Source: a phage
Length of the DNA stretch: 64,000 nucleotides
Strand: one strand, 5' to 3'
Sequence record: PZ296772.1
The notes under the pieces were generated by a model. It saw only the letters and a list, made by a program, of their open reading frames with translations. It searched no databases and had not been told where the DNA came from. Below, in pieces: positions 25 to 56,382 of this stretch (position 1 is its first letter; each line of letters opens with the position of its first letter). The translations under genes and the position numbers were made by a program.

Positions 25-360
25 GTGGATATGGTATTAATGAGCCTATCCAATTGGTCGAATATGACCTTGCCACCGATGAGGAAATTCCTTATGTCGA
101 TTGAAGATATTAAAGGCTACAAGCCGCATACCGACGATAAAATCGGTAAAGTGAACGCTATTAAAGATGCAGAAGTCCGTCTTGGATTGTTGTTTGATGC
201 TCTGATTGAAGAAGCATATATCTTGAAAGAAAATGAAACAGAGCAACAAACCAAAGAAGATATGGATGCAGTACAGGCTCTTAAGTATGCTAAGCAACAT
301 CTAAAAGAAGCCAGCATGTGGGCCTGTCGTGCAGTATTTCGACCTGAGGAAAAATACTAA
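25..360 (+). CDS. hypothetical protein (start uncertain, may begin upstream)
   Basis: 111-aa ORF co-oriented with flanking early genes; no motif recognised. Confidence 0.35.
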   Translation: MDMVLMSLSNWSNMTLPPMRKFLMSIEDIKGYKPHTDDKIGKVNAIKDAEVRLGLLFDALIEEAYILKENETEQQTKEDMDAVQALKYAKQHLKEASMWACRAVFRPEEKY

Positions 361-6189: not shown

Positions 6190-6663
6190 ATGATTATCAA
6201 TGAAAACTCTTGGCACTATAAAATTTATGCCGCATTCAATAGTACATGGAATCGTCCGAAAACATTATGTGCTTATTTTTGGAAAACGTTTATTCCGGTA
6301 TTAGCTGTTTCGATTATTGGATTTGCGATTTTAGCAGCAGCCACAATCATTGGCCAGGAAATTTTAACTAAATTCTTTGTTTTTAGCAGTCTATGGACAT
6401 TAGTTCCAGCCTCAATTGGTATAGGCATTTTAACAATATCAGTAATGGTTCTTATTGCTGTCGGGGCGGTAATTGGTCCATCTTGGTTGTTAGACAAATA
6501 TAACGACAGAAAATATTATAAAGAAATTGAGCTCATTGCACAAAACCAAGAACGAATTAAAAATGGACTTGGGCCTATTGAACGTAAGAAATCATTAATA
6601 GGTGAATACCTTAAAGCTCGTAAAGAAAAAGTCTGTCCTACCCTTGAATATAAGGCTAAATGA
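6190..6663 (+). CDS. membrane protein
   Basis: Two or three predicted transmembrane segments. Confidence 0.5.
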   Translation: MIINENSWHYKIYAAFNSTWNRPKTLCAYFWKTFIPVLAVSIIGFAILAAATIIGQEILTKFFVFSSLWTLVPASIGIGILTISVMVLIAVGAVIGPSWLLDKYNDRKYYKEIELIAQNQERIKNGLGPIERKKSLIGEYLKARKEKVCPTLEYKAK

Positions 6664-7649
6664 TGAAAACAATTATGAAAGGCTACTTTGGTAGCCACCT
6701 TTATGGAACGTCTACTCCTGAATCTGACGTCGATTTTAAAGAAATTTATGTCCCTCACGCTCGTGATATCTTGACCGGTAATGTTAAAGAACACATGAGC
6801 AAGAACACGAATAACACATCATCTAAAAACACTAAAGATGATATTGACCACGAGTTGTATAGTCTCAAATATTTCTTTAAACTAGCTGCAGATGGTGAAA
6901 CCGTCGCATTAGATATGCTTCACACTCCACCAAGTCTAGTAGTTAAATCTGATTTGCCTGATGTATGGAAGTATATTCAAGATAACAGGTCTCGTTTCTA
7001 TACCACTAACATGAAATCTTATTTAGGGTACGTCCGTAAGCAAGCTTCTAAATACGGTGTCAAGGGTTCTCGTCTGGCTGTTCTCCGCCAAGCCCTTAAA
7101 CGTTCTAATGAATGGGGACAATACTTTGATAATGGTGCAGTAATTCGTTTATCACATATGAAGAATGTTCTGCCTGTAGGTGAATTTGCTTCATGGGTTG
7201 AAACTGAAAACGAGAAAACAGGTAAGCAAACATTCTATAGTCTGTTGGACCGTAAATTCCAAGATACGTTAACCAATAAAGAGTTCAATGCCATCCTGGT
7301 TAAACTTGAAGAGAACTACGGTGAACGTGCTCGTAAGGCAGAAGCCAATGAAGGTATTGATTGGAAAGCATTGAGTCATGCATGCCGTGGTGGACTTCAG
7401 CTCTTAGAAATTTACAAAACCGGCGACCTGGTTTACCCGCTTAAGGATGCTCCATTTATTCTCGATGTTAAGCTTGGTAAACATACATTTAAAACTGTAC
7501 AAGAATTCCTAGAAGATATCGTTGACCAAGTTGAACATGCGGCAGAACAAGCTGCTAAGAACGGTATGCAGCAAAAAGTAGATATGAGTTTCTGGGATGA
7601 CTTCCTTGAGCAAGTCTACTTAGAAAACCACAATTCATACTATAAATGA
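6660..7649 (+). CDS. Pol-beta-superfamily nucleotidyltransferase-like protein
   Basis: N-terminal minimal nucleotidyltransferase motif YFGSHLYGTSTPESDVDF (GS...[DE]xD). Confidence 0.5.
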   Translation: MMKTIMKGYFGSHLYGTSTPESDVDFKEIYVPHARDILTGNVKEHMSKNTNNTSSKNTKDDIDHELYSLKYFFKLAADGETVALDMLHTPPSLVVKSDLPDVWKYIQDNRSRFYTTNMKSYLGYVRKQASKYGVKGSRLAVLRQALKRSNEWGQYFDNGAVIRLSHMKNVLPVGEFASWVETENEKTGKQTFYSLLDRKFQDTLTNKEFNAILVKLEENYGERARKAEANEGIDWKALSHACRGGLQLLEIYKTGDLVYPLKDAPFILDVKLGKHTFKTVQEFLEDIVDQVEHAAEQAAKNGMQQKVDMSFWDDFLEQVYLENHNSYYK

Positions 7650-7651
7650 TA

Positions 7652-7670
7652 AGGGCCTTCGGGCCCTTTA
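7652..7670 (+). terminator. terminator-like hairpin
   Basis: agggcc-TTCG-ggccct stem-loop followed by ttt. Confidence 0.4.
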
Positions 7671-7696
7671 GGGGGTCAAAATATTTTTAAAAAGTA

Positions 7697-7733
7697 GTGT
7701 ACATGCTTTTAGGATATGTTATTATAGACCTAT
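7697..7733 (+). promoter_or_regulatory. early promoter-like
   Basis: GTGTAC ... gtTATTATagacctat, same -10 context as other cassettes. Confidence 0.4.
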
Positions 7734-7742
7734 CGAAACGAA

Positions 7743-8744
7743 ATGAGTAAATTGGAGAATAAAATGTTCAACGTTCAAATCAAAAAAGGTATCTATCGTA
7801 ATAACGAAATCTCCGGTTCTTATGTTGCCACAAAGACCTGGTTCCCGGCAAAGCTTAATCCTGAATGTTCCCACTTAGGTGACGGTAAAATTTTCGTTAT
7901 GATTGATGGTTCTGAACGTGGAGTATGGGTCTTCAAATCAGATATCGTAATGGAAGGAGCTGAGACATCACCAGTTGCAGTTGTTGAAAGCACTGAAGAT
8001 ATGAAAACTCGTATCAACAAACGCTTTAAAGTAATGAACATGATGACGAATGGCATTATCGATGGCAAAATTCGTTCACTCATTATTTCAGGTGCAGCCG
8101 GTATTGGTAAGACGTATTCTCTGGATAGAGCGCTTAATAATGCTAATGATAACGGTTTCATCAAATACAAAAGCATTAATGGTAAAATCTCAGGTATTGG
8201 CCTTTACGAACAACTTTGGCTCAACCGTGATGCAGACAGCGTTCTCTTAATCGACGACGTTGACGTATTCTCGGATATGGATATCTTGAACCTTCTTAAA
8301 GCAGCATTAGATACTGGTGATAAACGCAAAGTTTGCTGGAGCACTGCATCATCTTATCTTGATGATAAGGGTATTGATAAAGAATTTGAGTTTGAAGGTA
8401 CTATCGTTTTCATTACAAACGTTGATATCGATAAAGAGTTAGAACGTGGTTCGAAACTTGCTCCACACCTTCAAGCTTTAGTATCTCGTTCAGTGTATCT
8501 TGACCTTGGAGTACACTCTAATGAAGAGATTATGGTTCGAGTTGAAGATGTAATATTATCTACTGACATGATGCAGAAACGTGGTCTGACGGATGCAGAA
8601 ACGTATAAAGCATTGTCCTGGATGAAGGCTAACATATCTCGTCTTCGCAATGTGTCATTACGTACGGCTCTTTATGTAGCAGATTTTATTTCAACTGATA
8701 AAGATGGTTGGGAGGAAATCTCTGAAGTAACTTTACTGAAATAA
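7743..8744 (+). CDS. AAA+/P-loop ATPase
   Basis: Walker A ISGAAGIGKTYSL and Walker B VLLIDDVD. Confidence 0.55.
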   Translation: MSKLENKMFNVQIKKGIYRNNEISGSYVATKTWFPAKLNPECSHLGDGKIFVMIDGSERGVWVFKSDIVMEGAETSPVAVVESTEDMKTRINKRFKVMNMMTNGIIDGKIRSLIISGAAGIGKTYSLDRALNNANDNGFIKYKSINGKISGIGLYEQLWLNRDADSVLLIDDVDVFSDMDILNLLKAALDTGDKRKVCWSTASSYLDDKGIDKEFEFEGTIVFITNVDIDKELERGSKLAPHLQALVSRSVYLDLGVHSNEEIMVRVEDVILSTDMMQKRGLTDAETYKALSWMKANISRLRNVSLRTALYVADFISTDKDGWEEISEVTLLK

Positions 8745-8882
8745 GCTTATAGGAAGTTCTGAGGTAACAAAAGCCATAAAGATGAATAATCATATGGCTT
8801 ACCTCAAAGAAGGACACCAGGAACCTACTGAGGGCATAGAAATATTTAAAAATAATGATGTACAAATCAAAGAGGATATGTT

Positions 8883-9170
8883 ATGGATTTTATGCAAAAA
8901 ATTAAAGCCGCAGTCGAACTCTATGCTCATCGTATGGTTAGTTCTACAATGCAATATAGCGAGGAGGTTCGCCAGGACTCTTCCTTGAAAGGAAAAACTA
9001 AAGCCTTAATTACCTTAGATCGTTTGCAAAAGAATGCCATAGAGATGCTCCAGTACGATAAGGATGTGTATAAGAAAGAACAGGAAGAGAAACTTAAATC
9101 TGAAAAATTACAAAAAATCCCGAAGTCGGTTTGGTTCAGTGGAAAAAATACCGAAAAAAGTTTCTTTTAG
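8883..9170 (+). CDS. hypothetical protein
   Basis: 95-aa ORF with AGAGGA RBS; preferred over overlapping 8782..8988 frame. Confidence 0.4.
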   Translation: MDFMQKIKAAVELYAHRMVSSTMQYSEEVRQDSSLKGKTKALITLDRLQKNAIEMLQYDKDVYKKEQEEKLKSEKLQKIPKSVWFSGKNTEKSFF

Positions 9171-9172
9171 TT

Positions 9173-9208
9173 GTTTACAAGGTCTATGATTATGTTATTA
9201 TAGACCTA
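9173..9208 (+). promoter_or_regulatory. early promoter-like cassette inside inverted repeat
   Basis: GTTTAC, 17 nt, TATTAT; aggtctat/atagacct inverted repeat. Confidence 0.5.
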
Positions 9209-9228
9209 TCAACTACTGGAGGTAAAAC

Positions 9229-9756
9229 ATGAACGCTAAAGATATTTTCAACCTGGTAAATTATAACGACGGTAAATTTAAATCTGAAGCACAAAGCAAG
9301 TTCTTTAATGACGTTGCTTATGGTAACGAGATTACCGTGGACGGAGGTCAGATTTTCAAATCTCGCTGGAATTGGATTGTTATCATCGATTCGGTTGGAA
9401 TTGTGGAAGTCTACAAAAACACTAACAAAAAACGTACATTATTCTGGTCTCGTGAAACTAACGAGCAGTACAAAAAGGATAAAGCATCTCGTTTATCCAA
9501 AGTAACCCAGGAAGATATCGAGTTTATCAAGAAAGATATCGAGATGTACGAAAATTTAATCGCTGAAGACCAGGCAGTACTCGATAAGTTTGATGAAATT
9601 AAAGCTTCTCGTGAAATCCCTGACTTCATGAAAGAAACAGTAAACGAACGATACGCTCTCACTTCAGAACGTATTGCAAACTATACAAAACAGAAAGCAG
9701 AACGTATTAGTACTCTTCGGAAATTTGAAGAACGTTTAAAGTCGGTTCACGCATAA
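9229..9756 (+). CDS. hypothetical protein
   Basis: 175 aa, RBS GGAGG. Confidence 0.5.
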   Translation: MNAKDIFNLVNYNDGKFKSEAQSKFFNDVAYGNEITVDGGQIFKSRWNWIVIIDSVGIVEVYKNTNKKRTLFWSRETNEQYKKDKASRLSKVTQEDIEFIKKDIEMYENLIAEDQAVLDKFDEIKASREIPDFMKETVNERYALTSERIANYTKQKAERISTLRKFEERLKSVHA

Positions 9757-9783
9757 ACGCTTTACCCAAGGACGGGTTATAAT
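9755..9783 (+). promoter_or_regulatory. MotA-box-like middle promoter candidate
   Basis: aaaCGCTTTA, 13 nt, TATAAT (Mot box consensus wwwTGCTTtA, one mismatch). Confidence 0.4.
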
Positions 9784-9818
9784 GGTTTTGAGTTCCAATT
9801 CAATCTGAGGAAATAGTT

Positions 9819-10814
9819 ATGAGCATTACATCTGATGCGGTAAAACATGAAATTAACGGTTTATGTGCTTCACAGATTAAAGTGTGGTTTAAAGACCATA
9901 ACGATCGCAGAGCACTTAATTATGAGCAAATTGCTATCCAAGTTCATCAATTACTGACAAGTAAATTTGATTTTCATATGCCGTCTGAAATCTATACTAA
10001 TCTGCCGCGAGCACTTATTAAAGCGTGTAAAGGTTATGGAAAATCAATGGCTGACGGAATATTCAGCGCGCTGAATAAACTTAACGTTCTGTCGATGATT
10101 AACTCTAACAACATCCTGCGTAATCTAGGACGTACTGATTTGTTCGGTCGTGAACAGTGTAAAATGCCTTTGAAATGGATTGTTGCCCATCTTAACGAGA
10201 ACCAAACACGTTTTATGGCTGTAACAGCACGTTTACAAATGGGCCTAGATCGTCAGATGAACTTTAAAACTCATCCACGTTATTCAGGTTCAACAAACTT
10301 TTATAAATGTGAGCTTCAAAAGGTTGGTGGCAAAACTGTCTTAGTAGTTCGTGTAACGTTTGAAGGACGTCGTCAAGGATATTTTGACATAATCGGCTCT
10401 GGACTTAAACATTGTGGATTTATCGACGAAGTTGATATCAAGCGAGACGGCATTGGATACCGTATTGGGTATGTTTGTACTCTTAAAGAAGAGATTTCAG
10501 GACCAGCACCAGGACTAAAAGACGTTAGATATAAAGACGAGCTCGTTGAAGAAATAAAAGAAGTTGAATATGATATCAACCAAGAAGATGCTCTTAAAGA
10601 CCTTATTGATGAACTGAACCAAGACGTTATTCCGGTTCAGAAATTTGAATCAAAACATGCTGAGCAAATCAAATACTTTGAAGCTTTGATTAACGAACTT
10701 AATGTAACTATTCAACAGACTGATGATGAAATCTCACGATTAGCGGGCTTAAACGGTAAAAATAAAACAGAACGAGCTAATCTTATTCAAGTAGTAAAAC
10801 TTCTTAAGGAATGA
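9819..10814 (+). CDS. hypothetical protein with C-terminal coiled-coil
   Basis: 331 aa; heptad-like C-terminal ~70 aa. Confidence 0.5.
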   Translation: MSITSDAVKHEINGLCASQIKVWFKDHNDRRALNYEQIAIQVHQLLTSKFDFHMPSEIYTNLPRALIKACKGYGKSMADGIFSALNKLNVLSMINSNNILRNLGRTDLFGREQCKMPLKWIVAHLNENQTRFMAVTARLQMGLDRQMNFKTHPRYSGSTNFYKCELQKVGGKTVLVVRVTFEGRRQGYFDIIGSGLKHCGFIDEVDIKRDGIGYRIGYVCTLKEEISGPAPGLKDVRYKDELVEEIKEVEYDINQEDALKDLIDELNQDVIPVQKFESKHAEQIKYFEALINELNVTIQQTDDEISRLAGLNGKNKTERANLIQVVKLLKE

Positions 10815-10843
10815 TGTACAACCAAGGATGGTTGGAGTATAAT
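10815..10843 (+). promoter_or_regulatory. promoter with CAACCA-N4-TGGTTG palindrome (family member 1)
   Basis: tGTACAaccaaggatggttggagTATAAT; palindrome in the spacer. Confidence 0.5.
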
Positions 10844-10869
10844 AAATTTTTCAACATGAGGAATATAAA

Positions 10870-11829
10870 ATGGCTTTTATTACACGTAGAGAACTTATCA
10901 AAGAATTTACCTCGAACGCATATACTCCAGGACCTAATCCTATCCGTATGCCTGTAAAGACTCCTGAAGAGATTGAGGAAATCTGTTCATATTATGGGAT
11001 TAATTCTCGTATGTTTACTCAATTTGAATGCGTTACTAACACACCCGTTAAAGAGTTCATTAAAAATGGTGAGTTCAGCCGTTTATTAGCCAAACAGAAA
11101 CTTCGTAATTTTTGTATCGGCGGCTGCGGACAATATTTTGCTAAACAGTTCCGAAATAACCTTAACAATCTGATGGCCATTGCTTCTCGTATTCGTCCTC
11201 AAGCAATTAACATGAAACATTTGAAATATACTTACGATAAGTTAGAAATCATGGTTATCAGTGAGAATGAGTTCACTCTTACATATAAACCTAAGAATGA
11301 TAACGTTGCTCGTGTATTCCACCAAGCGCTAGAAGTGTTAGGCGATAATATCCATGAGATTAAAGCAATTTATTCTCGTGAGCTTAATATTATCGACCCT
11401 ATCAAGAATAAGGGCCATATCGCTATCCAGGCTCGTGTATCTATTGGTAAAAAGGTTCCTGCGCCATGGTGGCACAAAGACTCTGAATACTATCAAAATC
11501 TTAAAAAGGAAAATGCATTGTTTGAAGGCAATATTACAGCAACACCAGTCGGTAATGCAGAGGTTCTAGGCGCATATTCTCCAGCACAATCTGGTATGTT
11601 TAAAGGTTTGCCAAATGTGTGCAAACTGTCGGCAGTAAAACTAAATGTTTCTAATGACCTTCTTCCGGCAGAAGATTATCATTACAACCAAATCAAGGCT
11701 ACTGTAGACCAACTGTCCGTTGAACTTGACAAAGCACAAGCTAAGCTTCGTGATGCTCAAAGTGTTGTAACGAATCTCCAGTTGCAGTATTCTAAACTTT
11801 TTAATGCAATGAATGCATTAAAATCATAA
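10870..11829 (+). CDS. hypothetical protein with C-terminal coiled-coil
   Basis: 319 aa; C-terminal LDKAQAKLRDAQSVVTNLQLQYSKL. Confidence 0.5.
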   Translation: MAFITRRELIKEFTSNAYTPGPNPIRMPVKTPEEIEEICSYYGINSRMFTQFECVTNTPVKEFIKNGEFSRLLAKQKLRNFCIGGCGQYFAKQFRNNLNNLMAIASRIRPQAINMKHLKYTYDKLEIMVISENEFTLTYKPKNDNVARVFHQALEVLGDNIHEIKAIYSRELNIIDPIKNKGHIAIQARVSIGKKVPAPWWHKDSEYYQNLKKENALFEGNITATPVGNAEVLGAYSPAQSGMFKGLPNVCKLSAVKLNVSNDLLPAEDYHYNQIKATVDQLSVELDKAQAKLRDAQSVVTNLQLQYSKLFNAMNALKS

Positions 11830-11833
11830 AACG

Positions 11834-11863
11834 GTTTACAACCAAGGATGGTTGGAATATAAT
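11834..11863 (+). promoter_or_regulatory. promoter with CAACCA-N4-TGGTTG palindrome (family member 2)
   Basis: GTTTACaaccaaggatggttggaaTATAAT. Confidence 0.5.
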
Positions 11864-11891
11864 GAATCTATCTTAACGAGAGGAAAATATT

Positions 11892-12842
11892 ATGACACGT
11901 TCACATTACATTGAATACTTTGCCGGGCTTATCGCTAACGTTCATGCCCAGCGCGCTTCTGGTGCACTAGGATTTGATGTTCCACACCGAGATGTAGTAA
12001 GTGGTATTCTTCGTGATTTTGGTACATACACAGGTCAAGAAAATCATATCTGTAAAGATACTCAAAATGCATATTCTCATTCATTAGGGACACTGCTTCA
12101 ATGGTTCAAACGTTCTCGTTTATTATCTTCTACTGTAGCTCGTGATAACATCAAAAACTTTATGAAGCCGAGCTTTATTAAATCTGTGACATCTAAAACC
12201 GATTTGGTTGAATTCACTATTGTTAATGATGTTAAAAAGACTCATTTGGCTGATTGGTTATCTACCATTCCTGAAACTAAATTTGCTGATAAATTTGCTT
12301 GTGAATTCAATAACCAAGTGAATATGCTTTTTAAACATTCTCGTAAATTATTCACGGGCGGTGATGGTCGTACAAATAAAGTTCATGTTAAAGATTGGGT
12401 TACTGCAGTATTCAAACCAACCGGTAATGGTAACGCATCATTATCAATTGATATCCAGGTTCCTTATTACTACTCACGTAATCTCGGTACCATGAAAGCT
12501 GAAGAAATTAATAAGCATAACAAAACCGTTCGTTCGTTGTCTTATAAACTTATTACATTGTTAGAGACTATGGATGTTGTTGAAACGTTCGACGAGTCCG
12601 AAGATAACGGTTCAATGTTATACAGTTCTCGCACCCGAATTAAGCTGAGGAACCCTAACGAGTATAAACTTAAGACTATTAAAGAACCTAAAGTAGAAAA
12701 AGTTGACAACTTGAGCGAAGAACGTGAGTACCTCAAATCTCGTCTGAAAGAAGTCGAAGCCCAGATTAAAGAACAGACTAAATCGTTAAAAGCTCTGAAT
12801 GCGAAAGCGGATGGTTTACGAAATGCCATTGAGGTGTTATAA
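11892..12842 (+). CDS. hypothetical protein with C-terminal coiled-coil
   Basis: 316 aa; C-terminal EEREYLKSRLKEVEAQIKEQTKSLKALNAKADGLRNAIEVL. Confidence 0.5.
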   Translation: MTRSHYIEYFAGLIANVHAQRASGALGFDVPHRDVVSGILRDFGTYTGQENHICKDTQNAYSHSLGTLLQWFKRSRLLSSTVARDNIKNFMKPSFIKSVTSKTDLVEFTIVNDVKKTHLADWLSTIPETKFADKFACEFNNQVNMLFKHSRKLFTGGDGRTNKVHVKDWVTAVFKPTGNGNASLSIDIQVPYYYSRNLGTMKAEEINKHNKTVRSLSYKLITLLETMDVVETFDESEDNGSMLYSSRTRIKLRNPNEYKLKTIKEPKVEKVDNLSEEREYLKSRLKEVEAQIKEQTKSLKALNAKADGLRNAIEVL

Positions 12843-13147
12843 TGAATCTACGTCTTCTAGAGGATATTGATATGAGCACTAATCATGGCTTAGTTAAGTT
12901 TATTGATGATAGTTCAAAGATTGAATTTGTTCAGCGAGATAAAATCCTCGGTGAAGAAGAGTTCGTTCCTCCGGCATGGAACGAAATAATGAAAATGGTT
13001 GAACGACGTGAAAATGCTGCCAAATCGGCAGCAAAACATCCATGCCCAGAATGTGGAACTATCCAGGTCCAACTGGTTAACTGGACCACTGATAACTTGA
13101 AATTGAAATGCCGTAAATGCTTCCACAAATTTGAGAGAACAATATAA
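12842..13147 (+). CDS. zinc-ribbon protein
   Basis: C-terminal CPECG...(17)...CRKC. Confidence 0.45.
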   Translation: MNLRLLEDIDMSTNHGLVKFIDDSSKIEFVQRDKILGEEEFVPPAWNEIMKMVERRENAAKSAAKHPCPECGTIQVQLVNWTTDNLKLKCRKCFHKFERTI

Positions 13148-13560
13148 TGAGATATAGCCTTCGTTGTTTTATCGCAGCTTTAGTTTTTGCCATTATTCCA
13201 TTCATTTGGAACAGCCAGAATACTTACATGGAAACTAAAGTAATTCCTGTGGAGGTAGTGGAATTAATCTCAGGCCAATCTACAGGAAAATATTCTAAAT
13301 TAGAATTTATTGCAGTCTATAAAGATGAGCAAGGACGAGTTTTTGACAGGCATGTATCACCATCGTTTTATACGCTTCTGAATAAAGGTGATACGATAGC
13401 TATAGAAATTCGTGAGATGGATATTCAGCAAAATACTCGAGATAACATCATTTGGTTCTTTGGTACAGTGCTGATGTTTTCTATCGGTATCACAGGTTTT
13501 ATTACATGTATTGTATTTGGCATTGCATATTTAATCGATGAAAGGAAAAATAATGTTTAA
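13147..13560 (+). CDS. membrane protein
   Basis: N-terminal and C-terminal hydrophobic segments. Confidence 0.45.
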   Translation: MRYSLRCFIAALVFAIIPFIWNSQNTYMETKVIPVEVVELISGQSTGKYSKLEFIAVYKDEQGRVFDRHVSPSFYTLLNKGDTIAIEIREMDIQQNTRDNIIWFFGTVLMFSIGITGFITCIVFGIAYLIDERKNNV

Positions 13561-54882: not shown

Positions 54883-54911
54883 TTTACAACCAAGGACGGT
54901 TGGAGTATAAT
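54883..54911 (+). promoter_or_regulatory. promoter with CAACCA-N4-CGGTTG palindrome (family member 3)
   Basis: GTTTACaaccaaggacggttggagTATAAT. Confidence 0.5.
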
Positions 54912-54941
54912 CTTTCTATCTTAACCAAACGGGAAACAATT

Positions 54942-55436
54942 ATGAATATCAATACTACGTCTACTTACATCCTGAAAGACGAAAAACAAATCAACTGGTA
55001 CGGTGCTTCAGTGCGAGCTTATGAAAAGTTTTGTGAAATTTTAGGTGCCACTCAAGGTAATAGTTTCACTATTGTTAACTTCATTAAACAAGTTGAAGGC
55101 CCTTGGTTATTCTTAGAAATTAAAAATTCATACGGTACAATTTCTACTACTGCCATCCCAAGCACCGACTTTGAACTGTTGATTGAAGAAGCACCTGTTA
55201 AAGATGGTCTCCACTTTGATATGGATATCGTTTGTATGTACGGTACTCTGATTAAGCCTATTGAGCCTACTGATTTATTGTGTAAATATGTTTCAATTCG
55301 ACGCCCATTCGATGGTCCAGTAAATGGATGGGTAACTGACCAGTGGATTGAAGATGGGGTTGAACTTCTGAACGTTGTTCATGCCGGTGATTTTAGTGTG
55401 GTTCCACGTAGTGCAGTAGTTAATATTCTAAATTAA
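54942..55436 (+). CDS. paralog-family protein 1 (shared C-terminal domain)
   Basis: Start moved to ATG; C-terminal TDQWIEDGVELLNVVHAGDFSVVP shared with 55498 and 55963. Confidence 0.5.
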   Translation: MNINTTSTYILKDEKQINWYGASVRAYEKFCEILGATQGNSFTIVNFIKQVEGPWLFLEIKNSYGTISTTAIPSTDFELLIEEAPVKDGLHFDMDIVCMYGTLIKPIEPTDLLCKYVSIRRPFDGPVNGWVTDQWIEDGVELLNVVHAGDFSVVPRSAVVNILN

Positions 55437-55438
55437 TG

Positions 55439-55468
55439 TTGTACATCCAAGGATGGATGGAGTATAAT
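55439..55468 (+). promoter_or_regulatory. promoter with degenerate CATCCA-N4-TGGATG palindrome (family member 4)
   Basis: tGTACAtccaaggatggatggagTATAAT. Confidence 0.5.
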
Positions 55469-55497
55469 GAATTCAATTTAACAAAGAGAGAAAAATT

Positions 55498-55953
55498 ATG
55501 ATTACTATTGGTGAAATTAAGCGTGTATCAACTGCATCCCGGTCTAAAGCCGCAGGTCGTCTGGTTGAAGTGGTAGGACTTCGCACAAATGGCATGGGAC
55601 GCATTAAAGAAGTTAAAGTTCGAATCATTCCTAGTTTTGGACGTCAGGATACTCAGCACGCTTACGTAAGTCCTAAATTCTTGGAAACTCCTGTGAGCGC
55701 TCATTTTGCTTCTACTGAACCTAATGCACAGTTCAAATGGGCCTTGTGTAAAGGTGTTGAATTCCAGACTGATAAAGAATTTGACTTCATCGATGAATAC
55801 GGTTATCCAAGCAAAACTGATACTATGTGTGGCTTCATTAGTGACCAATGGGTTGAAGATGGTGAAAAGTTATACAATATCGTATTCTTAGGTGACTTCC
55901 GAGTTGTTAAAGAATCTGAAATCACTCGTTATGTGTCTCCTCGTAAAGCTTAA
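55498..55953 (+). CDS. paralog-family protein 2 (possible MotB-like by position)
   Basis: 151 aa; SRSKAAGRLVEV and CGFISDQWVEDGEKLYNIVFLGDF shared with neighbour; MotB assignment is recollection only. Confidence 0.5.
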   Translation: MITIGEIKRVSTASRSKAAGRLVEVVGLRTNGMGRIKEVKVRIIPSFGRQDTQHAYVSPKFLETPVSAHFASTEPNAQFKWALCKGVEFQTDKEFDFIDEYGYPSKTDTMCGFISDQWVEDGEKLYNIVFLGDFRVVKESEITRYVSPRKA

Positions 55954-55962
55954 GGAATTATT

Positions 55963-56382
55963 ATGAATATTGTAAATCTCTCTACAGGTGATTACGTATA
56001 TGTATCTGTTGCTTCTCGCTCTAAAGTTGCCGGGAAGTTGGTTGAAGTTCTTTCTGTGAGTGATCCGGTTTTTGGTCGTAACCAAGTTAAAGTTCGTGAC
56101 GCCGATGGTAACATTGGTTACGTTAAAAGCCAATTTATTGAACCAGAAGAAAAAGCGTTCAAATGGAAACTGGGCAGATCAGTTTTAGTTGTAAAAGACT
56201 ACGAGTTCACCATTGCCGCTGCGACAGATGGAACACCGTGGACAACGAATCAAGTTGCTGGTTTTATTTCGGACCAATGGGTAGAAGATGGTGTTAAGCT
56301 TTATAACATTGTTTTCGCTGGGCAGTTCATGGTAGTTCCTGAGTTCCAAATCAAAAAATATTGTCCAGCATCTTTTGCATAA
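55963..56382 (+). CDS. paralog-family protein 3
   Basis: 139 aa; SRSKVAGKLVEV and AGFISDQWVEDGVKLYNIVFAGQF, clear tandem paralog of 55498. Confidence 0.5.
   Translation: MNIVNLSTGDYVYVSVASRSKVAGKLVEVLSVSDPVFGRNQVKVRDADGNIGYVKSQFIEPEEKAFKWKLGRSVLVVKDYEFTIAAATDGTPWTTNQVAGFISDQWVEDGVKLYNIVFAGQFMVVPEFQIKKYCPASFA

What the first reader, a model, noticed from the sequence alone, without database searches (positions are those of the whole stretch)
9819..12842. Three consecutive ~320-aa genes with the same globular-plus-coiled-coil architecture
ORFs 9819..10814, 10870..11829 and 11892..12842 are nearly the same length and each ends in a ~50-70 aa heptad-rich helical segment, but their globular parts are not obviously similar. 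Each has its own promoter. Same-sized, same-architecture, sequence-divergent neighbours in a variable region could be a diversified family.
Basis: seen in the sequence. Interest (0 to 1): 0.45.

Follow-up and report, generated by a model that had tools for sequence, protein, structure and literature searches.

The report
Tandem paralogues of T4 anti-defence NrdC.5
Three neighbouring early genes of an RB69-like T4-type phage are very diverged copies of one gene family, each a fast-evolving globular domain on a conserved coiled-coil tail, and because the one studied member (T4 NrdC.5) disarms the bacterial Dsr1 immune system, the other copies are good candidates for further counter-defence genes.

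Summary
The window is an RB69-like T-even phage (Mosigvirus). The three ORFs are real and correspond to nrdC.6 (A, 9819-10814), nrdC.5 (B, 10870-11829) and nrdC.3 (C, 11892-12842). The C-terminal heptad tails are confirmed quantitatively, and for B by a confident 52-residue AlphaFold helix. Pairwise BLAST finds no similarity between the globular parts, and Pfam and PHROGs file the three separately. Even so, they are homologous. An exhaustive HMMER search found single-copy relatives in other enterobacterial T4-like genera that bridge the families. With tails removed, hhalign gives 91-98% probability, against at most 1.2% in 45 controls. The secondary-structure order is the same in both models, although the model of A has low confidence. 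The family is narrow: 23 representatives among 1.84 billion. It has one copy in Kanagawavirus and Jiaodavirus and three or four in Tequatrovirus, Mosigvirus and Dhakavirus. The cores diverge fast; the tails are the best-conserved part. B and C each follow a near-identical PeSL-type early-promoter cassette; the copy before A is degenerate. T4 NrdC.5 is published as counteracting Dsr1 (eLife 2022). A counter-defence role for all three is inferred, not shown. These are known genes with a newly recognised relationship. Interest is moderate.

The parts
9819..10814 (+). Gene A, 331 aa, NrdC.6-type paralogue (Pfam PF26899 on close relatives)
   Evidence: ORF. 97.9% identical to RB69 nrdC.6 and 29% to T4 NrdC.6 (E = 5e-18). 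phrog_2257. PF26899 is the precomputed label on P0001-P0004.
10870..11829 (+). Gene B, 319 aa, NrdC.5-type paralogue (Pfam DUF7235)
   Evidence: ORF. PF23882/DUF7235 at E = 1.1e-118 over the full profile. 95.9% identical to RB69 nrdC.5 and 25% to T4 NrdC.5 (E = 1e-10). AlphaFold2 model with mean pLDDT 66.
11892..12842 (+). Gene C, 316 aa, NrdC.3-type paralogue (Pfam PF26897 on relatives)
   Evidence: ORF. 56% identical to T4 NrdC.3 (E = 3e-118). phrog_1435. Relatives carry PF26897. The NrdC.3 and NrdC.4 families are homologous at 97.7% by hhalign.
10632..10811 (+). Heptad (coiled-coil-like) tail of A, residues about 272-331
   Evidence: Best heptad window 282-309, z = 4.1, 0 of 500 shuffles. 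58% identical to Tequatrovirus NrdC.6 against 30% for the core. The low-confidence model shows helices broken near G310-G313.
11668..11826 (+). Coiled-coil-like tail of B, residues 267-319
   Evidence: Single helix 267-318 at pLDDT 82-95. Heptad window 273-300, z = 4.6, a/d positions 94% hydrophobic.
12696..12839 (+). Heptad tail of C, residues about 269-316
   Evidence: Heptad window 279-306, z = 4.6, 0 of 500 shuffles. 67-85% identical between orthologues.
10815..10843 (+). PeSL-type early promoter cassette before B: TGTACA, 17-nt spacer holding hairpin CAACCA-AGGA-TGGTTG, TATAAT
   Evidence: no matches expected by chance. The hairpin is -6.9 kcal/mol. The layout is as described for PeSLs (PMC2839356 and PMC4122927).
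11835..11863 (+). PeSL-type early promoter cassette before C: TTTACA-N17-TATAAT, 11 of 12 consensus positions, same hairpin
9761..9783 (+). Degenerate copy of the cassette before A: TTTACC, 11-nt spacer, TATAAT; non-canonical spacing
   Evidence: Sequence. Not called by the promoter scan. No hairpin beyond chance (z = +0.35).
9174..9201 (+). Promoter-like site before the nrdC.8 homologue, and the likely source of transcripts reaching A
   Evidence: TTTACA-16-TATTAT with TG, 10 of 12 positions. That it serves A is an inference.

Best explanation
Shown: the three ORFs are the nrdC.6, nrdC.5 and nrdC.3 genes of an RB69-like T-even phage, and they are deeply diverged paralogues of one small family restricted to T4-like phages. 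Each protein has a basic globular part (an N-terminal helical region plus a beta-beta-alpha-beta-beta sandwich), a variable and probably disordered linker, and a C-terminal heptad helix of about 50 residues. Other enterobacterial T4-like genera carry one copy in the same genomic slot. The E. coli/Shigella T-even lineages carry three or four in tandem. Inferred: the array arose by tandem duplication and is reshuffled by recombination between the repeated promoter cassettes and between the paralogues themselves. Inferred: the conserved tail makes the protein a dimer or trimer, or docks it to a shared partner, while the fast-evolving core binds a target. Inferred from the one characterised member: T4 NrdC.5 restores infection of cells carrying the Dsr1 sirtuin defence, so the array is most likely a battery of early-expressed counter-defence proteins. 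B would be aimed at Dsr1-like sensors. A and C would be aimed at other host defence proteins, or at variants of the same ones.
For: Identity of the genes. Homology of the globular domains through intermediates: with controls; NrdC.3 vs NrdC.4. Same secondary-structure order in the two models. Foldseek links A's model to the IME523 protein and B's model to the PM2 protein, both members of the bridging group. Coiled-coil tail. Narrow distribution, 23 representatives in 1.84 billion. Copy number of 1 in Kanagawavirus and Jiaodavirus against 3-4 in the T-even genera, with natural losses, split genes and a chimera. Fast divergence against the flanks (A 29%, B 25%, C 56%, compared with NrdC 91%, gp49 90%, NrdC.8 83%). 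The tail is better conserved than the core. Repeated PeSL-type cassettes. T4 nrdC.5 counteracts Dsr1: PMC9391042.
Against: A counter-defence function is demonstrated for T4 NrdC.5 only. B is just 25% identical to it, and nothing is known for NrdC.3, NrdC.4 or NrdC.6; the eLife study reports no data on the paralogues. The direct A-to-B and A-to-C comparisons are not significant, so A's membership rests on intermediates. The model of A has low confidence (pLDDT 49). MAFFT places the first shared motif inconsistently between runs. The BFVD search with B's model did not return NrdC.3, NrdC.4 or NrdC.6 entries. Oligomerisation through the tail is untested. The cassette hairpin is weak and has no U-tract. 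There is no hit to any known anti-defence or defence model.
Confidence: 0.6

Rival explanations
1. The three genes are one paralogous family, but A and C, and perhaps B, are not counter-defence proteins. Instead they act as early host-takeover or regulatory factors that bind housekeeping host or phage proteins, and NrdC.5's effect on Dsr1 is a special or indirect case.
For: Function is known for only one member, and only genetically. The family sits among early genes with many different roles. There is no similarity to any catalogued anti-defence or defence protein and no solved relative.
Against: The family shows fast divergence, copy-number variation, frequent loss and restriction to a few host-specific lineages, and the genes are dispensable in natural isolates. 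These are the usual marks of host-range or arms-race genes rather than core takeover functions. The only experimental datum points to counter-defence.
Confidence: 0.28
2. The globular core descends from, or mimics, a phage tail-terminator or tail-completion protein. Expressed early, it would act as a decoy that occupies defence sensors which recognise neck or tail proteins. This would parallel DSR2, which senses the tail tube protein and is blocked by DSAD1.
Confidence: 0.08
3. The shared architecture is convergent: three unrelated globular domains that each acquired a similar coiled-coil tail, for example by recombination with a common 3' module.
For: Pairwise BLAST finds nothing between A, B and C. 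Pfam and PHROGs keep three separate families. The tail is the best-conserved part. Recombination between the paralogues does happen.
Against: With the tails removed, profile comparisons through intermediates still give 91-98% probability, against at most 1.2% in controls. The secondary-structure order of the cores is the same. The single-copy relatives match two or more family profiles in the core.
Confidence: 0.04

Closest known systems
T4 NrdC.5 (Pfam DUF7235, PF23882), the counter-defence factor against Dsr1 of E. coli ECOR17 (Srikant, Guegler and Laub, eLife 2022, PMC9391042)
   Same: B is a full-length DUF7235 member at E = 1.1e-118. It occupies the same position in the array, is an early gene of the same size, and has the same core-linker-coiled-coil layout. 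A and C are remote paralogues of it.
   Different: B is only 25% identical to T4 NrdC.5, and its core lacks an insertion present in the T4 protein. Whether B, A or C acts on Dsr1 or on anything else is untested. The mechanism of NrdC.5 itself is unknown.
T4/RB69 nrdC.3, nrdC.4 and nrdC.6 hypothetical proteins (Pfam PF26897 and PF26899; PHROGs 1435 and 2257)
   Same: A is RB69 nrdC.6 at 97.9% identity and C is the RB69 nrdC.3 type at 91%; gene order is identical to RB69.
   Different: The databases treat these as unrelated families of unknown function. Here they are linked to each other and to DUF7235 as one superfamily. The window, like RB69, lacks the nrdC.4 copy.
PeSL (promoter-early stem-loop) cassettes of T4-type phages (Arbiol et al. 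2010, PMC2839356; Comeau et al. 2014, PMC4122927)
   Same: A sigma-70-like early promoter matching TTTACW-N17-TAYWAT, with a stem-loop inside the spacer, followed by a Shine-Dalgarno sequence and start codon. It is repeated in a hyperplastic region in front of variable genes.
   Different: The stem is only 6 bp, weak, and has no U-tract, so a terminator role is not supported here. Recombination at these copies is inferred, not observed. The copy before A is degenerate.
DSAD1, the SPbeta-type phage inhibitor of the DSR2 sirtuin defence
   Same: A phage protein that neutralises a defence-associated sirtuin (abstracts).
   Different: No sequence or fold relationship was found. DSAD1 binds DSR2 in competition with the tail tube protein, whereas no binding partner or mechanism is known for NrdC.5.

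Membership tests
DUF7235 / NrdC.5 family (PF23882) | Full-length match to the Pfam profile above the gathering score | tested here: met
   B scores 396.6 bits against a cut-off of 30, E = 1.1e-118, covering profile positions 1-307 of 307.
DUF7235 / NrdC.5 family (PF23882) | Counteracts Dsr1, shown by restoring plating on Dsr1-carrying E. coli | not testable with these tools
   Shown only for T4 NrdC.5 (PMC9391042). B is 25% identical to it.
NrdC.6 family (PF26899) | Significant full-length similarity to T4/RB69 NrdC.6 | tested here: met
   A is 97.9% identical to RB69 nrdC.6 and 29% to T4 NrdC.6 (E = 5e-18). Relatives P0001-P0004 carry PF26899. The local Pfam copy returned no such model for A, so the Pfam label is indirect.
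NrdC.3 family (PF26897) | Significant full-length similarity to T4 NrdC.3 | tested here: met
   C is 56% identical over 316 aa, E = 3e-118. Relatives carry PF26897. The label is indirect, for the same reason as for A.
One NrdC.3/4/5/6 superfamily (proposed here) | Homology of the globular domains, independent of the coiled-coil tail | tested here: met
   Tail-less hhalign through intermediates gives 91-98% (E = 1e-6 to 3e-12). The 45 controls never exceed 1.2%. The direct NrdC.6 vs NrdC.5 comparison is not significant (2.5-5.8%, up to 7.7%).
One NrdC.3/4/5/6 superfamily (proposed here) | Superposable three-dimensional cores | tested here: inconclusive
   The order of secondary-structure elements is the same in the models of A and B, and Foldseek links both to bridging-group proteins. 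However, A's model has pLDDT 49, no model of C was made, and B's BFVD search did not return NrdC.3, NrdC.4 or NrdC.6 entries.
Coiled coil | Heptad periodicity beyond what composition gives, over at least 4 heptads | tested here: met
   z = 4.1-4.6 and 0 of 500 shuffles, with scores close to GCN4 and tropomyosin; a single register spans 7-8 heptads. This is a home-made score, not COILS or MARCOIL.
Coiled coil | Long uninterrupted helix | tested here: met
   B: helix 267-318 at pLDDT 82-95. A: helices broken at 295-301 and 313-315 in a low-confidence model. C was not modelled.
Coiled coil | Helices actually associate as a dimer or trimer | not testable with these tools
   No multimer prediction or experiment was available.
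PeSL cassette | Sigma-70-like early promoter with a stem-loop between or overlapping the boxes, repeated in front of variable genes | tested here: met
   Four copies in the window with none expected by chance. Present in Mosigvirus and Dhakavirus loci. Layout compared with PMC2839356 and PMC4122927. The copy before A is degenerate.
PeSL cassette | The stem-loop acts as a terminator or attenuator | tested here: inconclusive
   6-bp stem, -6.9 kcal/mol, z = -1.4, no U-tract. Not called by the terminator scan.
Thioredoxin (the label on many GenBank records) | Thioredoxin fold or CxxC motif recognised by Pfam | tested here: not met
   No thioredoxin or glutaredoxin family matches A, B or C even at E up to 1. 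The label follows the gene symbol nrdC.x.

The most novel reading that the evidence does not exclude
The array is a set of early-expressed, oligomeric decoys whose cores derive from a phage neck or tail-terminator-like domain. Each paralogue would occupy the sensor surface of a different host defence protein that normally recognises late structural proteins. NrdC.5 against Dsr1 would be the first example, parallel to DSAD1 competing with the tail tube protein on DSR2. The conserved tails might also allow mixed oligomers between paralogues, giving combinatorial specificity.
Probability: 0.08. Interest if true: 0.75.

Novelty: new member of a known kind. Interest (0 to 1): 0.42.

Why it matters
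T4 NrdC.5 is one of very few known phage answers to sirtuin-based (Dsr1) immunity, and its mechanism is unknown. Two findings give concrete handles on it. First, it belongs to a tandemly expanded, fast-evolving family: NrdC.3, NrdC.4, NrdC.5 and NrdC.6, plus single-copy relatives in Enterobacter, Klebsiella, Pectobacterium, Edwardsiella and probably Acinetobacter phages. Second, the family has a modular build: a variable core, a linker, and a conserved coiled-coil tail. Together these nominate three more uncharacterised T-even genes as counter-defence or host-range candidates. They suggest domain-swap and tail-deletion experiments. They merge three Pfam DUFs into one superfamily. They also correct the widespread 'thioredoxin' mis-annotation of these genes.

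Tried and rejected
1. Direct pairwise BLASTP, HMM-versus-sequence searches and direct hhalign between A's family and the others gave scores at the level of shuffled decoys or 2.5-21% probability. The link became clear only after the bridging sequences were found.

2. By-eye motif matching ('SRLLS...ILxNF') was dropped as evidence. MAFFT aligned that motif to different elements in different runs.

3. The word-indexed homology search returned only some families, apparently those at the ends of the query alignment, although all of them score 150-355 bits locally. Its silence is therefore not evidence of absence.

4. P0094 looked like a cross-family bridge, but it is a natural NrdC.5/NrdC.3 deletion chimera.

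5. The AlphaFold2 model of A built from five close relatives came out at pLDDT 49, so only its secondary structure and one Foldseek search were used.

6. The BFVD search with B's model did not return NrdC.3, NrdC.4 or NrdC.6 entries, so this direct structural cross-check failed to deliver.

7. PADLOC, the PDB sequence search, Rfam and tRNA scans found nothing relevant in the globular parts or in the DNA.

8. The thioredoxin annotation was rejected.

9. The roughly 260-aa neighbours in IME523 and KP1 are not family members.

10. A literature search for the Pfam names and for follow-up work on NrdC.5 found nothing beyond the 2022 paper.
Full report
**What the window is.** The finding's 3 kb is 96.6-98.1% identical to its 25 best-matching Escherichia and Shigella phage genomes, and the three proteins are about 91-98% identical to RB69's. 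Flanking ORFs are the homologues of T4 nrdC.11, nrdC.10, nrdC.9 and nrdC.8 upstream, and of nrdC.2, nrdC.7, nrdC, gene 49 and nrdD downstream. This is the nrdC-mobD hyperplastic region of a Mosigvirus-type T-even phage. Gene order is identical to RB69: nrdC.8, nrdC.6, nrdC.5, nrdC.3, nrdC.2, nrdC.7, nrdC.

**The observation.** The three ORFs exist as stated: A at 9819-10814 (331 aa), B at 10870-11829 (319 aa) and C at 11892-12842 (316 aa). A matches T4 NrdC.6 (29% identity, E = 5e-18), B matches T4 NrdC.5 (25%, E = 1e-10; Pfam DUF7235 at E = 1e-118) and C matches T4 NrdC.3 (56%). No RNA gene lies in the region, and the opposite strand carries only short ORFs of 52-95 aa.

**The coiled-coil tails.** No standard predictor was installed, so I scored a/d core occupancy in 28-residue windows over all seven registers.
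- In each protein the best window lies in the C-terminal tail, with scores of 7.5-8.4 against 8.6-8.9 for GCN4 and tropomyosin.
- z is 4.1-4.6, and none of 500 shuffles reaches the score.
- A single register runs for about 7-8 heptads, with 67-94% hydrophobic a/d positions.
- AlphaFold2 models B's tail as one helix, residues 267-318, at pLDDT 82-95.
- The only PDB sequences that the family profile touches are bona fide coiled coils (SMC, GCN4 constructs, IF1, Lpp, APC, keratin), and all align to the tail.
- A's tail contains a G-L-N-G segment and is broken in its low-confidence model.

**Promoters.** B and C are each preceded by a near-identical 29-bp element: T(T/G)TACA, a 17-nt spacer and TATAAT, with the inverted repeat CAACCA-AGGA-TGGTTG inside the spacer. 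The element before A has only 11 nt between its hexamers and is not a canonical promoter. A is probably read from the promoter at 9174-9201, before nrdC.8; this is an inference. The layout matches the PeSL cassettes described for T4-type phages, including the T4-type consensus TTTACW-N17-TAYWAT and a stem-loop between the boxes (PMC2839356 and PMC4122927). Here the stem is weak (-6.9 kcal/mol, z = -1.4) with no U-tract, so I do not claim terminator activity.

**Are the three related?** Pairwise BLAST finds nothing, and Pfam and PHROGs keep three families. From 16 related loci I defined four families: NrdC.6-type (contains A), NrdC.5-type (B), NrdC.4-type (absent from the window) and NrdC.3-type (C).
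- hhalign links NrdC.3 to NrdC.4 at 97.7% (E = 1e-12). With tails removed it links NrdC.3+4 to NrdC.5 at 88-91%.
- A's family stayed marginal: 8-21% in local mode.
- An exhaustive HMMER search of 1.84 billion representatives with a three-family profile returned only 23 hits. Among them were distant members of 309-345 aa (P0104, P0108, P0111, P0114, P0107) that match two family profiles each.
- Used as a bridging group, with the last 65 residues removed from every sequence, they score 97.6% against NrdC.6 (E = 2.6e-12) and 93.8% against NrdC.5 (E = 1.7e-7).
- NrdC.6 plus bridge scores 95.5% against NrdC.5 and 91.1% against NrdC.3+4 over 188 columns.
- Thirty comparisons with unrelated neighbouring families and fifteen with reversed profiles never exceeded 1.2%.

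I therefore treat the homology of the globular domains as established by sequence through intermediates.

**Structure.** The model of A, built from five close sequences, has pLDDT 49. The model of B, built from a 22-sequence superfamily alignment, has pLDDT 66, with the core at about 70-84. Both show the same order: an N-terminal helical region, beta-beta-alpha-beta-beta, a low-confidence linker, then C-terminal helix.
- Foldseek against BFVD takes B's model to RB69 NrdC.5. It then finds, at probability 1.00, 309-370-aa proteins of Acinetobacter, Pectobacterium (PM2), Serratia and Klebsiella T4-like phages.
- A's model finds NrdC.6 proteins, then the IME523 335-aa protein, then an Acinetobacter phage protein.
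- The IME523 protein belongs to the bridging group by HMM (E = 7e-55). P0114, also a member of that group, has the same length (309 aa) as the PM2 protein and is probably that protein; this is an inference.
- B's search did not return NrdC.3, NrdC.4 or NrdC.6 entries, so the structural evidence is supportive but not independent proof.

**Distribution and evolution.** The copy numbers found by scanning ORFs of at least 150 aa in each locus are listed below.

| Phage or genus | Family copies |
|---|---|
| Tequatrovirus (including T4) | 4 |
| Mosigvirus (including the window) | 3 |
| Dhakavirus | 3 |
| ACG-C40 | 1 |
| Pinarejo | 3 (lacks NrdC.6) |
| T2 record | NrdC.6 and NrdC.4 split |
| Kanagawavirus (IME523), Jiaodavirus (KP1) | 1, in the syntenic slot |

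- A metagenomic protein, P0094, is an NrdC.5/NrdC.3 deletion chimera joined at a short microhomology.
- Between the window and T4, the flanking genes are 77-91% identical, while A, B and C are 29%, 25% and 56%.
- Within each protein the tail is the best-conserved part (A 58% against 30% for the core; B 43% against 22%; C 67% against 56%). The linker is the most variable in length and sequence.

**Function.** The only experimental datum is that expression of T4 nrdC.5 restores plating of a deletion mutant on E. coli carrying the ECOR17 Dsr1 sirtuin defence (PMC9391042). That paper reports no data on the paralogues, and I found no later mechanistic work.

My best explanation is a tandemly expanded battery of early counter-defence proteins. 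In it, a conserved coiled-coil tail oligomerises or docks a fast-evolving target-binding core. This is an inference from family membership, the evolutionary pattern and the architecture. I give the whole statement 0.6. Taken separately, I would put the homology at about 0.9, the coiled-coil tail at about 0.8, and a counter-defence role for all three proteins at about 0.45.

The main rival is the same family with other host-takeover roles for A and C (0.28). The tail-terminator-decoy idea is the most novel reading that the evidence does not exclude (0.08). Convergent architecture is disfavoured (0.04).

**Novelty and verdict.** The genes are known and annotated in RB69 and T4, and one family member has a published function. 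Three things are new here:
- NrdC.3, NrdC.4, NrdC.5 and NrdC.6, and the single-copy proteins of other T4-like genera, form one superfamily that current databases split.
- The family has a modular core-linker-coiled-coil build with a conserved tail.
- In Mosigvirus and Dhakavirus the array is punctuated by PeSL-type cassettes.

This is a new member or extension of a known kind, of moderate interest. Its main value is as a source of testable counter-defence candidates.

Noticed in passing
window 54883-56382: A second small array of tandem paralogues lies after dexA. ORFs 54900-55436 (178 aa), 55498-55953 (151 aa) and 55963-56382 (139 aa) share a C-terminal motif, roughly SDQW(V/I)EDG..L(Y/L)N(I/V)V..G.F.VV. 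The first two are each preceded by the same promoter-hairpin cassette as B and C, at 54883-54911 and 55440-55468.
   Followed up: partly
window 6660-13147 and many GenBank records: Homologues of nrdC.2 to nrdC.11, including A, B and C, are labelled 'thioredoxin' in many phage records. The label follows the positional gene symbol nrdC.x. No thioredoxin domain is detectable in A, B or C.
   Followed up: yes
L001 (T4) 10067-10894; compare L004 10999-11883: T4 NrdC.6 (275 aa) matches other Tequatrovirus NrdC.6 proteins (295 aa) only up to residue 259 and then diverges. This looks like a frameshift that removes the heptad tail in the reference T4 sequence.
   Followed up: partly
P0094; L015 7805-8213 (ACG-C40); L014 (T2 record) 7878-8768 and 9916-10855; L016 (Pinarejo) 8001-8135: Natural rearrangements occur within the array: an NrdC.5/NrdC.3 fusion protein joined at an N-x-V-N microhomology; a phage that keeps only NrdC.6 plus a remnant; split NrdC.6 and NrdC.4 in a T2 'escape mutant' record; and a phage that keeps only the tail remnant of NrdC.6.
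   Followed up: partly
window 13147-13560: The nrdC.7-type predicted membrane protein lies downstream of nrdC.2 here and in RB69. In T4 it lies between nrdC.8 and nrdC.6. This is a local gene-order change within the hyperplastic region.
   Followed up: no
window 6660-8744: The nrdC.11 homologue is an RlaP-type nucleotidyltransferase (PF10127, E = 4e-13). The adjacent nrdC.10 homologue has weak, sub-threshold matches to AAA/STAND-type NTPase families (best AAA_22, E = 1e-4, 23.1 bits against a cut-off of 27). The pair is conserved in all the T4-like genera looked at and might work together.
   Followed up: no
BFVD entries E5EYP0 and E5EYP1; E5E4A2 of Acinetobacter phage Acj61: Foldseek hits with adjacent accession numbers (318 and 348 aa) suggest an independent tandem pair of family members in another T4-like phage. 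Together with the Acinetobacter phage hits, this would extend the family beyond enterobacterial hosts.
   Followed up: no
window 9229-9756: The upstream nrdC.8 homologue (175 aa, 83% identical to T4) also has a helix-rich, weakly heptad-like C-terminal half. Its best window scores z = 2.4 (p = 0.022), well below A, B and C.
   Followed up: partly
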